Shown in pieces: positions 9,703 through 37,788 of a stretch of 64,000 bases of DNA. The translations under genes were made by a program, and so were the position numbers. Every line of letters starts with the position of its first letter. Positions within the stretch are counted from its first letter, which is position 1. The DNA comes from Squalus acanthias (taxonomy: Eukaryota): the NCBI GenBank assembly GCA_030390025.1, contig CM059432.1, forward strand, positions 25,298,001 to 25,362,000. The letters run 5' to 3'. Under the pieces are notes generated by a model. That model was not told where the DNA came from. It saw nothing but the letters and a program-made list of their open reading frames with translations, and did no database searches.

Positions 9703-9740
9703 TTACCTGATGAAGGAGCGATAGCTCCGAAAGCTTGTAA
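9703..9740 (+). ncRNA. Putative minimal hammerhead ribozyme
   Basis: UUAC-CUGAUGA-A-GGAGC-GAUA-GCUCC-GAAA-GC-UU-GUAA: core boxes, 5-bp stem II, 4-bp stem I. Confidence 0.7.
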
Positions 9741-10589
9741 AATTAAATAAATCTGTTGGACTATAACCTGGTGTTGTGCGACTTCTCATTTTTGTCCACC
9801 CCAGTCCAACGCCGGCATCTCCACATCATGACTTCTTTAAGTAGTGCTGTGGAATCTTTTACGTACACCTGGGAGGGCAGACAGAGCCTCAGTTTAATAC
9901 TTCACCCAAAAGATAGCATCTCTGGCACTGCAGCACTGCCTCAGTACTGCACTGAAGTGTCAGCCTAGATTATGTACTCAAGTCTCTCGAGTGGGGTTTA
10001 AATGACCTTCTGACTCAGTGGTGAGAATGCTGCCTTTGAGCCACAGCTGACATCTATCCTGTGAGTGTACACAATAGCCATGAAATTCCAATTTAGTCCC
10101 AGGCAGAAACCAAGCAGAACTCCTGAATGGGAGTTGGAAATGGAGCAGATCATGGATTCCACATCATATTATCAGGATAGCCATTTTACAATGGTGGGGG
10201 GAGGGGGCGGGTGGGGAGAAGAGAGGGGGCGAGGCCCGCATTTGTAAATCACCCAGTCCATCCAGGGATGGATTCTGGGCCTCTCCGCTCTTCAGCTGGC
10301 AGCTTGGCTCTATTGGAATTTTAGGCCCAACATTCCTTCATTTGTATTGGAGGGTAAAAAAAGCATAAGTACATGAAAAGCTGCAGAAGGAAATAGGTAA
10401 AGCATTACTAGGGGGATTTGGGTGGCATGTTAACCCAGGAAATGTTGAATTCTTACTTTAAAAATGATATATTCAGGTTCATTTTAGGCATGTTTCTATT
10501 TCAAAATTAATAGATTTCTTAACTTGTACAATAAAGGAAAGGAAAGCAAAGTGACATTTTCGTTATTCCTCAGTGCAACCAGAACATAC

Positions 10590-10700
10590 GTTCTTACATT
10601 ACAACAGTAACTACACTTAAAAATGTACTTTATTGGCTGTAAAGCACTGTGGGACATGTGGAGGTCATGAAAGGCGCTATGTAAATGCAAGTCTTTCTTT
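10590..10700 (+). mobile_element. SINE/L2-type 3' tail fragment
   Basis: TACATTACAACAGTAACTACACTT...GAAAGGCGCTATGTAAATGCAAGTCTTTCTTT. Confidence 0.75.
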
Positions 10701-10899
10701 CGTTAAAAGGCTACACCCCCTCCCGCACTTCCTTGGCTCAGTCAGTTTGCAAATGCCATCCAAATGCCCATGCTTTCATAGTGACCCTCTTCTCCTCCAC
10801 CTCATAATAATAGTCTTGTCCATCTTCCCTGTCAATTCAACCAGAACTTTGCTCTCCCTCTAATCCAGTTAATCCGATACTCTTCTTCCATTCCCCTGG

Positions 10900-11345
10900 T
10901 TCGAGCTGGCACTCTTCCCTCCCCTTTAGAGTTGAAGCTGACATTCTTTGTCCCCTCCCAGTTCATGCTAGCAACCTCCCTCCTCATTACCCCTCAATTA
11001 AAGCTGGCATTGTCCTTCCTTCCCCATCCAGCTTCTCCCTCTCCCCTCCCCAAGCAGCACTCCTGCTTCTGTCCCTTCCCTCTCCCTTTCATTGCCATCA
11101 ATTTCCCACTTTCTTTCCCTTCATTTCCCCTTTTAATGCATTTCATTTGCCCGCTCTCTTCACTTTCATTGCCATCCATTCGCTTTCATTGCTTTCCAGT
11201 TCCCCTTTCACTGCCATCTATTTCCTTTTTCATTTTCACTCATTCTTCTCTTCATTGTTATCTATTCACCCTCCACTTTCCCATACCAGCCACCCCCCAC
11301 CCAACCTCTCCCACCCCCCTGTCATTTTTCACTGCTATGCATGCC
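10900..11345 (+). repeat. CT-rich low-complexity tract
   Basis: Pyrimidine-rich with recurring CTTTCATTGCCATC-like units. Confidence 0.75.
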
Positions 11346-34220: not shown

Positions 34221-35348
34221 AGGTGAGGTGAGTGACTGCCCTTGACATCGAGGCAGCATTTGACCGAGTGTGGCATCAAGCAGCTCTATTAAAATTGAAG
34301 TCAATGGGAATCAGGGAATCACTGGCTGGAGTCATACCTAGCACAAAGGAAGATGGTTGTAGTTGTTGGAGGTCAATCACCTCAGCCCCAGGACATCACT
34401 GGAGGAGTTCCTCAGGGCAGTGCCCTAGGCTCAACCATCTTCAGCTGCTTCATCAATGACCTTCCCTCCATCATAAGGTCAGAAGTGGGGATGTTCGCTG
34501 ATGATTACACAGTCTTCAGTTCCATTCGCAACTCCTCAGTTAATGAAGCAGTCTATGCCCGAATGCAGCAAGACCTGGATGCCATTCAGGGTTGGACTGA
34601 TAGGTGGCAAATAACATTCGCGCCACACAAGTGTCAGGCAAGCAAAAGTCTAACCACCACCCCTTGACATTTAACGGCATTACCATCGCTGATTTCCCCA
34701 CCATCAACATTCTGGGGGTCACCATTGTCCTGAAACTTAACTGGACCAGCCACATAAATACTGTGGCTACAAGAGCAGGTCAGAGGCTGAGTATTCTGTG
34801 ACGAGTGTCTCACCTCCTGACTCCCCAAAGTCTTTCCACCATCTACAAGGCAAAAGTCAGGAGTGTGATGGAATACTCTCCACTTGCCTGGATGAGTGCA
34901 GCTCCAACAACACTCAAGAAGCTTGACACCATTCAGGACAAAGCAGCCCGCTTGATTGGCACCCCATCCACTACCTTAAACATTCACTCCCTGTGTGTAC
35001 CATCTACAAGATGCACTGCAGCAACTTGCCAAGGCTTCTTCGGCAGCACCCCCAAACCCGCGACCTCTTCCACCTAGAAGGACAAGGGCAGCAGATGCAT
35101 GGGAAGACCATCACCTCCAAGTTCCCCTCCAAGTCACACATCATCCTGACTTAGAAGCCGATCCTTCATCGTCGCTGGATCAAAATCCTGGAACTCCCTA
35201 CCTAACAGCATTGTGGGAGTACCTTCACCACATGGACTGCAGCGGTTCAAGAAGGCGGCTCACCACCACCTTCTCAAAGGCAACTAGGGATGGGCAATAA
35301 ATGTTAGCCTTGCCGAGGCCCACATCCCAGGAACGAATAAAAAAAAAA
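34221..35348 (+). mobile_element. LINE family B, 3' portion
   Basis: ALDIEAAFDRVWH, GVPQGS, FADDYT, IYKAKVRSVMEYSPLAW; A-rich tail. Confidence 0.9.
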
Positions 35349-35599
35349 TTGTTGAATAAGCTCAATAGATTCAAAGGCCTTCGGGGAAGTCCGGTCTACA
35401 CATGGCAATTAAGACTGAACACTAAATGCAGGCTTGCAAGTGGTGCCCACACCACAAGAGCAAATGAGACAAAAAACTTAATAAGAGGTTAAAATGGGTA
35501 TTTTTTTGAGGGGTTCTGAACATGTATAATTGAGATGAGGAACGCAAGTTTCATGAGGGGCCAACAAATGCAGTTGCAATGACCCCATGGCATTTGGTC

Positions 35600-37005
35600 A
35601 CTACTCTGAGACCCATGTTTATAGACCTAGACATGTCAGAGGAGACCTGTTTCTCCTGACTCCACTTCACAAAGCACACAGCTGTACAATGGCCTGCACA
35701 CAACATCTGGATTAGGGAAAACTCTTCCTGTAGAAATGAAGCTTTCACCCTATCAGATCCTTCCAAACCATCCCAGAAGGCATCTGTCACAGTAGGCAGT
35801 CTGAAATGCATACATATATCACAGCCTTTGTGTTTAAAAGCCCCACTATCAATTGTCCTGTGAAAAACATACATCAGATGGATAGCGACACAGCTTTCAC
35901 TGGGTGGCAAGATTCCCTTTAGGGCAAACCATTGCACATCATACCATAGTGGCACCAGAGCTCTTCATATCATCCCCATGGCCTTCATTAACATGAAAAA
36001 GTTGGTTGTCAATAACTCCTCAGTTAGTAATCCATTACAACAGTGACTCCACTTCAAAAGTACGTCATTGATTGTAAAGCGCTTTGAGGTGTCTGGTGGT
36101 CGTGAAAGGCGCTATATAAATGCAAGTCTTTCTTTCTTTCTTAATCCAGAAACATAATTATCTATTTCAGGGAGCATCCATGAAGCTATCATTGTGCGCA
36201 GTCCACGGTGCCCATATTATTTGAAGGGAGAAAAACACCATGTAAATGGCTCTGAGGCGAACAGGGCCATCATCTGCTACCATAACCGACCCCATTGAGA
36301 AACATCCTAACCACAGAGGAGGACCTCGGCATGGGCATCTCAGCATCTTTCTGCTGTTCCTCAGCTGCCATCTCTACCTTCAAAGAAAAGTGTTCTGTAC
36401 AGTTTAGGCACAAGGAAGGAGTTTGTGCCAATAGTTGTGCACAATGCTTCAAAACTTCCCAGAGGCTGTGGCAGTTCCAAAAATAGAGTCGTGCCATGCT
36501 TAACGGTTCCCACAAGAAATGCGTGAAAAAATGAGGAACGCACTTACCTTTATCTTCCTCCCGATACCAGCAAATTTCTCCCTCATTCGCCGCCAGGTAC
36601 AAGAGACTGAGGCAACTATTGACATGGTCACTGAAGTCCCTCGATTCAGCATGCAACTCTGCTTTTCCCGGAGGGTGGCCTTAAGCTCCAAATAGAGCCA
36701 TCTACTTTCCTTGAACCTCCTGATACAGGACCTCTAACTCTTTAGCATCAAAGTGAGCAGTGTTGCTCACATGTCTCCAATTAGTCCAATATTCTATCAC
36801 TGCTACAGCTTCCGCTTTCATGACAAGCTGCATGAAGCCCTTTAAAGGGTTGTTGCCTTATGCTGCAGGCGAAGCTCTCTGGAGGAGCTTTTTCTGTGCT
36901 GGTAGGCTATTCAAATAAGGGGAAGGGACTCCCAGTGCAAAATTCAGCTTGACCCGCCTCCTGAGCCACCTGCCAGAGGATACGCTGAACCCAAATTTTA
37001 CCCGT
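35600..37005. mobile_element. Highly degenerate Harbinger-like remnant (contains a SINE tail at 36033-36140)
   Basis: Plus-strand LDMSEETCF..LHFTK resembles the nuclease N-terminus; minus-strand AHFDAKELEVLYQEV resembles the Myb N-terminus; possible TIR AAATTTTACCC. Confidence 0.4.
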
Positions 37006-37344
37006 CTCGCAGATTCAAGGCTTATTTCTTAGACCCCTCCACAACTTACTCAGTCAAAAATCTATCCTGCTCCCTCTTGAATTTCCTAATGCTATCTGTC
37101 TACACTCCCTAGGCATTCTGTTCTGCAGTTTCTAATGATTATTGTGTATTGAAGTCTATAGGAAAATATTTGGTTTTATACTGTTCAATGTCAGACCATC
37201 AAAAAAAATTTAAAATTCCAGAGGAAACAACATAGCAAGAGAAGCCAAAAATATTGTTACAGATCAGCAGTATTTTTAAGATATATGTGGCAGGATCGTC
37301 CCAATTGCAGCTGTTAAGGTTACTTGAACAGTAAATGCAGGGTA

Positions 37345-37788
37345 GTATAGGCACTTTACAGCCTTCTGGACTCAACATCGAGTTCAACAATTTCAGACCA
37401 TAACCTCTGCCCCTAATTTTTTTCACATGGCAGCTGTTGATGATTCTGCCATTGCCATTTACACCTCATCTAGACTCATCTTTTGTTTCTTAACTTGTCC
37501 CATTACCATCTTGCACCATCATCCCTTTTGTATTTTAATCTCTCCTGTCTTCCAGCCTAACACAGACCTTCCCTTTTGTTCTTTCCTCCCCTCCTCCCTT
37601 TCCCGGCCCCTGCACTTGCTTAAAAATCTGTTACGTCTCTAACTTTTTCCAGTTCTGACGAAGGGTCATCGACCTGAAACGTTAACTCTGTTTCTCTCTC
37701 CACAGATGCTGCCTGACCTGCTGAGTATTTCCAGCATTTTATGGTTTTATTTCAGATTTCCAGCATCCGCAGTATTTTGCTTTTGTAA
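37345..37788 (+). mobile_element. Penelope-like element 3' fragment
   Basis: GTLQPSGLNIEFNNFRP* (GIY-YIG endonuclease C-terminal motif), pLTR with hammerhead motif, 13-bp TSD TAAATGCAGGGTA. Confidence 0.87.
37651..37687 (+). ncRNA. Putative minimal hammerhead ribozyme
   Basis: AGUU-CUGACGA-A-GGGUC-AUC-GACCU-GAAA-CG-UU-AACU. Confidence 0.7.

What the first reader, a model, noticed from the sequence alone, without database searches (positions are those of the whole stretch)
9703..37687. Minimal hammerhead ribozymes with compensatory stem-I changes in two Penelope-type families
Seen: three independent loci share the layout stemI-CUGANGA-A-stemII-GAAA-NN-UU-stemI. Stem I is UUAC/GUAA at 9703 (mirrored at 9467-9504), UCAC/GUGA at 27785, and AGUU/AACU at 37651. 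The first two differ by a double compensatory change; the third has a different sequence but still pairs. Stem II keeps 5 bp while its loop varies (4, 9 and 3 nt). Helix III is replaced by a palindrome (AAGCUU or AACGUU). Established: Penelope-like retroelements carry minimal type I hammerheads that lack a stable helix III and are proposed to act as dimers. The 37651 copy lies downstream of a GIY-YIG C-terminus. Inference: these are self-cleaving RNA motifs of shark PLEs, with an extra A after CUGANGA and a UU cleavage site. I cannot tell whether these families are already catalogued.
Basis: partly seen in the sequence, partly recalled or inferred. Interest (0 to 1): 0.72.

Follow-up and report, generated by a model that had tools for sequence, protein, structure and literature searches.

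The report
Known-type hammerheads in Penelope retroelement remnants
The three motifs are real and match, feature for feature, the minimal hammerhead ribozyme described in 2014 for Penelope-like jumping genes; they sit in short, likely inert leftover insertions of two such families in a probably shark genome, so this is an ordinary new example of a known kind, and self-cleavage is untested.

Summary
Observation confirmed: 4 complete motifs (9703-9740, mirror 9467-9504, 27785-27827, 37651-37687), against 0.05 per shuffled window. One slip: the 27785 cleavage site follows 27823, not 27833. Each motif lies in a 5'-truncated insertion with a 12-14 bp target-site duplication. The 9703 and 27785 insertions are one family (87% identical), each an inverted tail-less copy plus a direct copy with a 41-43 nt tail, the published Penelope-like (PLE) layout. 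The extra A, the U at the cleavage site and both palindromes are already in the 2014 alignment (PMC4209133). The 'double compensatory change' is one base pair between two subfamilies. At 27785 its 5' half lies inside the fold-back arm; contigs from three organisms support it only indirectly and also show an uncompensated outer-pair change. They show variation at N7 and loop II, none listed in core or stem II, and two fixed element ends about 43 nt apart. These copies are probably inert (long fold-back duplexes, or a lone monomer). The GIY-YIG label (18 codons) and 'shark' could not be confirmed by a tool. The scan reported this kind before, in this genome and others. Ordinary; low interest.

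The parts
9407..9418 (.). Left target-site duplication of insertion A (12 bp)
   Evidence: exact repeat of 9832-9843
9419..9621 (-). Inverted, tail-less copy of the family-A element end. 9419-9585 mirrors 9622-9788 with one mismatch; 9586-9621 is likely further element sequence of the same arm
   Evidence: 9586-9615 is covered by contigs in 2 of 4 runs (X5, X16), and contigs run on past 9621 with one shared sequence
9467..9504 (-). Complete minimal hammerhead motif, mirror copy (N7 = C)
9622..9831 (+). Direct, 5'-truncated copy of the family-A element end
9703..9740 (+). Minimal hammerhead motif A: stem I UUAC/GUAA, CUGAUGA, extra A, 5-bp stem II, 4-nt loop, GAAA-GC-UU; predicted cleavage after 9736
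9789..9831 (+). Tail (42-43 nt), present on the direct copy only
   Evidence: contig ends cluster at 9786-9788 (3 of 4 runs in the rows shown) and 9829-9831 (4 of 4)
9832..9843 (.). Right target-site duplication of insertion A
27686..27699 (.). Left target-site duplication of insertion B (14 bp)
   Evidence: exact repeat of 27919-27932
27700..27787 (-). Inverted, tail-less arm of insertion B; 88 bp with no mismatch to 27790-27877; its hammerhead core is broken at the joint (C3 to G)
27785..27827 (+). Minimal hammerhead motif B: stem I UCAC/GUGA, CUGAGGA, extra A, 5-bp stem II, 9-nt loop, GAAA-GC-UU; predicted cleavage after 27823; overlaps the fold-back joint
27878..27918 (+). Tail (39-41 nt) of insertion B; same 3' end as insertion A
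27919..27932 (.). Right target-site duplication of insertion B
37332..37344 (.). Left target-site duplication of insertion C (13 bp)
   Evidence: exact repeat of 37789-37801
37345..37788 (+). Insertion C: 444-nt 5'-truncated copy of a second family, with no inverted arm
37347..37403 (+). Last 18 codons and stop of a reading frame (IGTLQPSGLNIEFNNFRP*), 248 nt upstream of motif C; likely the end of the PLE endonuclease domain (recalled likeness, not confirmed)
   Evidence: no Pfam hit, no PDB hit; same frame end in the decayed copy near 13500-13600 minus
37651..37687 (+). Minimal hammerhead motif C: stem I AGUU/AACU, CUGACGA, extra A, 5-bp stem II closed by G-U, 3-nt loop, GAAA-CG-UU; predicted cleavage after 37683
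37789..37801 (.). Right target-site duplication of insertion C
13262..13592 (-). Older, decayed copy of family C (71% identical). Its motif at 13300-13264 keeps the core but pairs only 4 of 5 in stem II and 2 of 4 in stem I
42236..42358 (+). Short family-C copy (96% identical) that starts inside stem II and so lacks the CUGANGA half

Best explanation
The motifs match the published minimal type I hammerhead and lie in three short insertions flanked by 12-14 bp duplications, which are likely 5'-truncated cDNA copies of the 3' ends (pseudo-LTRs) of two Penelope-like retroelement families, with the ribozyme motif carried along as a passenger that is probably inactive at these loci. How it most likely works: (1, inferred from PMC11167929 and PMC8557442) the parent element's GIY-YIG endonuclease nicks AT-rich DNA on both strands, 12-14 nt apart, and its reverse transcriptase primes from the nicks at two fixed RNA sites about 43 nt apart. 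The outer site gives the tailed direct copy and the inner site the tail-less inverted copy. (2, shown by sequence) every complete motif is copied with continuous sequence on both sides of the predicted cut, so the template was uncut there, or cut and re-ligated. (3, inferred) in tandem parent transcripts two motifs would pair their palindromes into a 4-bp helix III and cleave slowly after U17, probably helped by the element's protein; this is what would keep the motif under selection. (4, predicted by folding) at A and B a transcript through both arms forms a long duplex that removes stems I and II, and C has no tandem partner, so these copies would not cleave in cis.
For: Motif far above chance. 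Match to the published consensus, including the extra nucleotide and palindrome. The turtle row of that alignment has the same GAAA-GCUU and the same AAAUAAAUC just downstream as family A; the lamprey row has the same UCAC/GUGA stem I. Exact TSDs of 12, 14 and 13 bp, AT 0.62-0.75 against 0.55 for the window. Inverted tail-less copy plus tail in 2 of 3 insertions, as described for PLEs. 1,915-10,361 contigs laid per run in 4 of 4 runs (three organisms by code), with mixed flanks starting at two places, 9786-9788 and 9829-9831, like the two start sites that bound the tail in the Anolis element. Listed variation falls at N7 (U to G, up to 41% of depth) and in loop II (1-nt deletions, up to 81%), with no substitution row at 4% or more in 9706-9710 or 9712-9738. 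GUGA form at 9739: 5%, 90%, 98% and 24% of depth in X5, X6, X8, X16; loose ends before 9705 end in UC in X6 and X16. Stem II pair probability is 0.98 (A right arm), 0.67 (B right arm) and 0.78-0.94 (C) in local context, and 0 for whole A and B. Published activity is low: no monomer cleavage and weak dimer cleavage, protein-dependent cleavage not needed for insertion, 1 of 9 Xenopus dimers cleaved.
Against: No RT or GIY-YIG domain of these families lies in the window; the 18-codon peptide has no database hit, so PLE membership rests on architecture. No Rfam hammerhead model matched, even at E up to 10. No row shows 9704 U-to-C directly, because the GUGA-type contigs of X6 and X8 almost all stop aligning at 9705-9706. 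A 9703 U-to-C change at 15-16% of depth in X5 and X16 has no listed partner change at 9740. Core conservation is statistically weak (0 of 11 core versus 12 of 50 downstream positions, p = 0.10; 0 of 24 motif positions versus 12 of 91 including the tail, p = 0.07), the tail is equally invariant, and clipped contigs bias the count. The active dimer is not the lowest-energy cofold for any motif (-18.7 versus -25.1, -20.1 versus -31.7, -8.5 versus -22.9 kcal/mol), and stem I of C is not formed in local context. An earlier unchecked note (e1-9860681) argues that the two arms of such insertions are not made independently, against step 1 as written.
Confidence: 0.87

Rival explanations
1. These genomic copies are themselves active ribozymes that cut host or read-through transcripts, as monomers or as trans-dimers between the many dispersed copies.
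For: All three keep a perfect core and both stems. The family is very abundant, so partners in trans are plentiful, and a run guessed to be RNA covers family A. A transcript ending or starting between the arms would free the motif (stem II probability 0.98, stem I about 0.5-0.6).
Against: A published minimal monomer showed no cleavage and dimers little; 1 of 9 dimers was active; no RNA-seq ends at the site in Anolis. Whole A and B fold into long duplexes. The A14-U17 paired, inactive dimer is 2.4-2.6 kcal/mol more stable than the active one. Contigs cannot show RNA ends, and the RNA label of X16 is a guess.
Confidence: 0.1
2. The motif is kept in the parent elements for a structural role (protein binding, priming, or joining of the two cDNA arms) rather than for cleavage.
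For: Insertions span the cut site intact (sequence). Hammerhead mutants do not impair insertion in vitro. In B the fold-back joint sits exactly on stem I/core at a 4-bp inverted repeat. Naiads lack the motif and still multiply.
Against: The invariant letters are the catalytic core, and the Anolis motif does cleave with protein, with C3/G8 rescue. That mutants still insert also argues against a needed structural role. A's joint lies 81 nt upstream of the motif, and the 42236 copy starts inside stem II, so joints are not tied to one place (3 cases).
Confidence: 0.12
3. A and B are a separate non-autonomous class (hairpin mini-elements or non-LTR retrozymes) that moves as a unit.
For: Both are short, TSD-bounded, carry long inverted repeats and lack coding sequence. 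Retrozymes derived from pseudo-LTRs are reported in one chondrichthyan.
Against: A and B have different joints and arm lengths (203/210 nt versus 88/about 130 nt) but the same two 3' ends, as expected of independent truncated insertions. There are no head-to-tail units, which define retrozymes. Contig depth falls steadily towards the 5' side.
Confidence: 0.05
4. The motif is a chance match, or an artefact of palindromic repeats.
For: No Rfam match; part of stem I at B is supplied by the fold-back arm.
Against: 0.05 loose hits per shuffled window versus 4; two unrelated families share the layout and nothing else; A and C do not depend on an arm.
Confidence: 0.02

Closest known systems
Minimal hammerheads (min-HHR) in pseudo-LTRs of metazoan PLEs (Cervera and De la Pena 2014, PMC4209133; main text parts 1-2 of 4 and supplement parts 1-2 of 3 read)
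   Same: CUGANGA plus one unpaired nucleotide, short helix I, helix II opening with G, GAAA-NN-UH with a palindrome in place of helix III, mostly single motifs in truncated elements, also pairs 100-700 bp apart on opposite strands. Nearest rows: Chrysemys (GAAA-GCUU, AAAUAAAUC downstream), Petromyzon (UCAC/GUGA), Tetraodon (CGUU).
   Different: None of the 56 alignment rows is a cartilaginous fish. Motif C closes stem II with G-U (also seen in the cichlid and Xenopus(1) rows). The exact sequences are not in the alignment.
Poseidon element PAc of Anolis carolinensis (Frangieh et al. 2024, PMC11167929; parts 1-2 of 4 read)
   Same: Hammerhead upstream of a tail bounded by two fixed ends; AT-rich targets; insertions continuous across the cut site.
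   Different: No ORF or protein is available here; clade (Poseidon or Neptune) is undetermined; the tail is 41-43 nt against 30-40 bp quoted for other PLEs; activity is untested.
PLE insertion anatomy: inverted pLTR, optional tail, TSD (Arkhipova et al. 2013, PMC3846280; Craig et al. 2021, PMC8557442; passages read)
   Same: 5' truncation, head-to-head inverted copy, tail at one end only, short TSD, palindrome at the inverted joint.
   Different: Here only the element ends remain; TSDs are 12-14 bp against 8-10 bp in the rotifer examples. Arkhipova et al. explain the inversions by self-priming, not double priming.
Non-LTR retrozymes (Li, Clavereau, Pollet 2026, bioRxiv 10.64898/2026.07.22.740005; parts 1-3 of 5 read, supplements not seen)
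   Same: Non-coding, pLTR-derived type I hammerhead sequences; reported in the one chondrichthyan sampled.
   Different: Retrozymes are head-to-tail arrays of two or more hammerhead units; these loci are single or inverted.

Membership tests
PLE minimal hammerhead (PMC4209133) | Core CUGANGA ... GAAA ... UH | tested here: met
   4 of 4 complete motifs
PLE minimal hammerhead (PMC4209133) | [quoted passage not shown] | tested here: met
   A in 4 of 4; feature listed
PLE minimal hammerhead (PMC4209133) | No helix III; palindromic 15.2-16.2 | tested here: met
   AAGCUU (A, mirror, B), AACGUU (C)
PLE minimal hammerhead (PMC4209133) | Short helix I and helix II of 4 bp or more | tested here: met
   4 bp and 5 bp in 4 of 4; stem II predicted in all local folds, stem I not in C
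PLE minimal hammerhead (PMC4209133) | G10.1-C11.1 pair (highly conserved, not invariant) | tested here: inconclusive
   G-C in 3 of 4 motifs, G-U in motif C; G-U rows exist in the published alignment
PLE minimal hammerhead (PMC4209133) | Covariation within families | tested here: inconclusive
   One compensated stem I pair between subfamilies, seen indirectly; one uncompensated outer-pair change; N7 and loop II vary. No R-scape-type test was possible.
PLE minimal hammerhead (PMC4209133) | Self-cleavage as dimer or with protein | not testable with these tools
   needs an assay or raw RNA ends; only contigs were served
Rfam hammerhead families (canonical, with helix III) | Match to a curated covariance model | tested here: not met
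   0 matches at gathering score in the window; no hammerhead among hits at E up to 10 on three short stretches
Endonuclease-bearing PLE insertion | 5' truncation with TSD | tested here: met
   TSDs in 3 of 3 focal insertions; none clear for the 2 decayed copies; depth falls towards the 5' side
Endonuclease-bearing PLE insertion | Inverted copy at the 5' end and tail at one end only | tested here: met
   2 of 3 insertions; two end clusters about 43 nt apart in three organisms
Endonuclease-bearing PLE insertion | Single ORF with telomerase-like RT and GIY-YIG endonuclease | tested here: inconclusive
   only 18 codons are present; no Pfam or PDB match; no full-length relative found in the collections
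PLE clade (Poseidon, Neptune, other) | RT phylogeny and linker zinc finger | not testable with these tools
   no RT sequence of these families and no host genome held
Non-LTR retrozyme | Two or more head-to-tail units with complete hammerheads | tested here: not met
   no direct tandem copy at any of the loci

The most novel reading that the evidence does not exclude
In the UCAC/GUGA subfamily, the hammerhead's own stem I and core form a short inverted repeat (CUCA-CC-UGAG) that serves as the preferred joint where the two oppositely primed cDNA arms of an insertion meet. The 'ribozyme' would then shape integration products as a DNA or RNA structure, apart from any cleavage, and the switch to UUAC/GUAA in the young, host-specific subfamily would have removed that hot spot.
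Probability: 0.1. Interest if true: 0.45.

Novelty: new member of a known kind. Interest (0 to 1): 0.17.

Why it matters
If right, it adds two sequence families from a probably cartilaginous-fish genome to a catalogue that already spans 40 animal species, and gives natural stem I and loop II variants for testing the still-open question of what PLE hammerheads do in cells. The fixed pair of element ends in three organisms agrees with the two reverse-transcription start sites found in vitro for the Anolis element. None of this would surprise a specialist: the motif, the extra A, the UU site, the inverted arm and the tail are all in print. My searches listed no paper devoted to hammerheads of shark PLEs, but a 2026 preprint reports pLTR-derived hammerhead repeats in one chondrichthyan, the whale shark genome preprint counts PLEs, and Repbase/Dfam could not be searched.

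Tried and rejected
Rfam: no hammerhead match at gathering or E up to 10; the MIR821 hit on insertion A (below its gathering score) only reflects the long hairpin. No host genome is held, so no genome-wide count or covariation test. Pattern scans for relatives: 0 loci in metagenome contigs, viral contigs and genome contigs; 4 bacterial loci match only the 21-24 nt seed and were rejected as chance. 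Peptide searches of the 20-22 aa frame end: 0 Pfam families, 0 PDB chains; it is too short for the homologue searches. Sequence look-ups in earlier scan notes: nothing. A relaxed descriptor added three hits: the broken mirror at B, the decayed copy at 13300, and 54732, which has no similarity to either family and was set aside as probably chance (0 relaxed hits in 12 shuffles, so not proven). No row of contig ends at the predicted cut (9737) is among the 24 loose-end rows shown, but 347 rows were not shown and contigs cannot show RNA ends, so this is no evidence. Lunse, Weinberg and Breaker (RNA Biol 14:1499) is not held; it is known here only from a passage and the reference list of PMC6765202. 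Supplements of the 2026 bioRxiv preprint were not seen and may list these families. Rejected readings: chance motif; retrozyme array; extra A or UU site as a new variant.

Full report
1. Observation. The three motifs are at the stated places. A scan of both strands for CUGANGA, 0-2 extra nucleotides, a stem II of 4 bp or more, GAAA, a UH site and a stem I of 3 bp or more found 4 hits in the window: 9703-9740, 27785-27827, 37651-37687 and the mirror 9504-9467. All have one extra A, 5 bp in stem II, four nucleotides between GAAA and stem I, and 4 bp in stem I. In 100 first-order Markov shuffles the loose descriptor gave 0.05 hits on average (maximum 2), and the strict layout, chosen after seeing the finding, gave none. 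So the layout is not chance. Rfam has no matching model: nothing at gathering score in the window and no hammerhead at E up to 10 on three short stretches. That is expected for motifs without helix III, but it is not support.

2. Anatomy. Each motif lies in a discrete insertion with an exact flanking duplication: 12 bp (9407-9418/9832-9843), 14 bp (27686-27699/27919-27932) and 13 bp (37332-37344/37789-37801), AT-richer than the window (0.62-0.75 against 0.55). Insertions A and B are one family (87.1% over 140 bp) and share nothing detectable with C. A and B have the same build: an inverted copy that stops 42-43 nt (A) or 39-41 nt (B) short of the 3' end, joined head to head to a direct copy that runs to the same last base in both. 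The arms differ at 1 of 167 positions in A (N7 of the core) and 0 of 88 in B, so both are young. In B the joint lies on the motif itself: a 2-nt spacer between 27787 and 27790, which leaves the plus-strand motif whole and the mirror with C3 changed to G. Insertion C is a single 444-nt copy whose first part encodes 18 codons and a stop, 248 nt upstream of the motif. I recall this peptide as typical of the end of PLE GIY-YIG domains, but no call confirms it. Two decayed family-C copies lie at 13262-13592 (minus strand, 71%; core kept, stems broken) and 42236-42358 (96%; starts inside stem II). The rest of the window is rich in repeats: 3 of 5 frames tested carry RVT_1 and 1 carries DDE_Tnp_4. 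The shark label rests on my recollection of such repeats and on unchecked scan notes; run names are coded.

3. Evidence from other copies. No host genome is held, and pattern scans of the three public collections gave no true relative. Sequencing runs do hold the element: 21 runs listed for the C region, 17 of them from five coded organisms. I laid 4 of the 21 on the direct arm of A (9586-9860; 80% likeness; differences from 4%): 10,361, 8,716, 2,221 and 1,915 contigs. (a) Long mixed flanks begin at two places, 9786-9788 (54, 267 and 30 contigs in X5, X6, X8) and 9829-9831 (108, 158, 59 and 14 in X5, X6, X8, X16), in the 24 rows shown of 371. These are the tail-less and tailed ends seen in the window. 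(b) Within the motif, listed changes fall at N7 (41%, 11% and 26% of depth in X5, X6, X16), in loop II (1-nt deletions, 81% at 9720 in X8, 27% at 9723 in X6) and in stem I; no substitution is listed for 9706-9710 or 9712-9738. The contrast is weak (p = 0.10 for 0 of 11 core against 12 of 50 downstream positions; p = 0.007 for 0 of 24 motif positions against the same; p = 0.07 when the invariant tail is included). It is post hoc, and biased because divergent contigs are clipped and four of the 12 variable positions lie at an insertion end. (c) The GUGA form of stem I makes up 5%, 90%, 98% and 24% of depth in X5, X6, X8, X16. Its expected partner change at 9704 is not listed, because in X6 and X8 depth collapses upstream of 9706; loose ends before 9705 end in UC in X6 (24 contigs, agreement 0.51) and X16 (2 contigs). 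This fits UCAC/GUGA as the widespread form and UUAC/GUAA as a younger form of organism A, whose upstream sequence the other two organisms almost lack. But a fold-back at the same place would give the same two letters, so the support is indirect. Against clean covariation, 9703 U-to-C at 15-16% of depth in X5 and X16 has no listed partner change; 9705 A-to-G (9% in X16) gives a G-U pair.

4. Folding. Stem II is predicted in all four isolated motifs. The hammerhead monomer lies within 1 kcal/mol of the minimum for A and B and 3.2 above it for C. In local context stem II has pair probability 0.98 (A), 0.67 (B) and 0.78-0.94 (C); stem I about 0.5-0.6 (A), 0.45 (B) and 0 (C). Whole insertions A and B fold into unbroken duplexes (-313.6 and -167.0 kcal/mol) in which neither stem forms. 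The active double-hammerhead is not the lowest-energy cofold for any motif, and the form with A14 paired to U17 is 2.4-2.6 kcal/mol more stable. These are nearest-neighbour energies without tertiary contacts or protein.

5. Mechanism. Shown: continuous copying across the predicted cut, TSDs, two fixed ends, an inverted arm lacking the tail. Inferred from the Anolis element, which cleaves and extends both DNA strands, starts reverse transcription at two internal sites that bound the tail, cleaves its hammerhead only with protein and does not need cleavage to insert: double-strand nicking and priming at the inner and outer sites, with the two first strands joined at the centre. In B the joint can be explained by a 4-nt inverted repeat in stem I/core; in A no such match is visible at the joint (read by eye). 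Arkhipova et al. instead explain such palindromic joints by self-priming on an antisense template, and an unchecked scan note argues that the arms are not independent, so this step is the least secure. The motif is most likely selected in tandem parent transcripts, where palindromes from two copies would build helix III. Published activity is low, and 1 of 9 Xenopus dimers cleaved. At these three loci cleavage in cis is unlikely.

6. Comparison. The 2014 paper lists the nucleotide between 9 and 10.1, the G10.1-C11.1 pair and the palindrome as conserved features, and notes single motifs from truncated elements and pairs 100-700 bp apart on opposite strands. In its 56-row alignment, counted by eye, 24 rows have U at the cleavage position, 15 have CGUU and 2 have GCUU after GAAA, and 10 of 11 vertebrate rows have A as the extra nucleotide; no row is a cartilaginous fish (GAAA is printed apart in the extracted text). 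Inverted tail-less copies, tails of 30-40 bp and short TSDs are described in PMC8557442, PMC3846280 and PMC8969392 (passages). The loci work like PLE minimal hammerheads and meet every sequence feature of that group that I could test except G10.1-C11.1 in C. PLE membership in the strict sense (RT plus GIY-YIG) and the clade could not be tested. They fail the retrozyme definition (no tandem units).

7. Papers seen. PMC4209133: main text parts 1-2 of 4, supplement parts 1-2 of 3. PMC11167929: parts 1-2 of 4. bioRxiv 10.64898/2026.07.22.740005: parts 1-3 of 5 and passages, supplements not seen. PMC8557442, PMC3846280, PMC6765202, PMC6155905, PMC8969392 and 10.1101/443036: passages. Lunse et al.: not held, known from a passage and reference list only.

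8. Verdict. A correct and careful catch of an ordinary thing: new sequence members of a described ribozyme-retroelement association. Earlier notes of this scan describe the same kind in this genome and in others; I take them as leads only. Interest 0.17. The boldest reading left open is that the stem I/core inverted repeat is a joining hot spot for the two arms (probability 0.1), resting on one insertion.

Noticed in passing
window 9586-9621 (minus strand): The spacer of hairpin A is covered by contigs in two runs and is likely more of the inverted arm. Read on the minus strand it gives DPLGHISLSWLCSLL*, and the contig letters running on past 9621 would add T-L in frame, a T-L-x-P-x-G pattern like that of family C. 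This hints that family A's ORF ends about 150 nt upstream of its hammerhead. Read by eye only.
   Followed up: partly
window 27784-27793: The fold-back joint of insertion B is a 4-nt inverted repeat with a 2-nt spacer made of stem I and the first core letters; the mirror motif has C3 changed to G.
   Followed up: partly
window 42224-42250: The short family-C copy starts inside stem II and is preceded by a near-duplicate of the loop II/stem II letters, as if the reverse transcriptase slipped or re-primed at the hairpin.
   Followed up: no
window 9622-9695: Sequence upstream of motif A is covered by contigs of organism A, with next to no depth in organisms B and C, whereas motif and tail are shared by all three: a young host-specific subfamily with a new upstream region.
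   Followed up: partly
window 39501-40337 (+): Open frame of 278 aa with a DDE_Tnp_4 domain (E 1.8e-26), a PIF/Harbinger-type transposase (family name recalled); related pieces at 15220-15648 and 24826-25384 resemble its Myb-like partner by eye, with no Pfam hit for the one tested.
   Followed up: partly
window 21646-23216, 63255-63590, 49120-49714, 6753-6804: Other inverted repeats in the self-comparison (70% over 1.6 kb; 90% over 74 bp; 96% over 85 bp; 88% over 52 bp), probably non-autonomous DNA transposons or inverted LINE pieces.
   Followed up: no
window 54732-54773 (+): One relaxed hammerhead-like hit (one core mismatch, 4 of 5 and 3 of 4 pairs) unrelated to either family; probably chance.
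   Followed up: no
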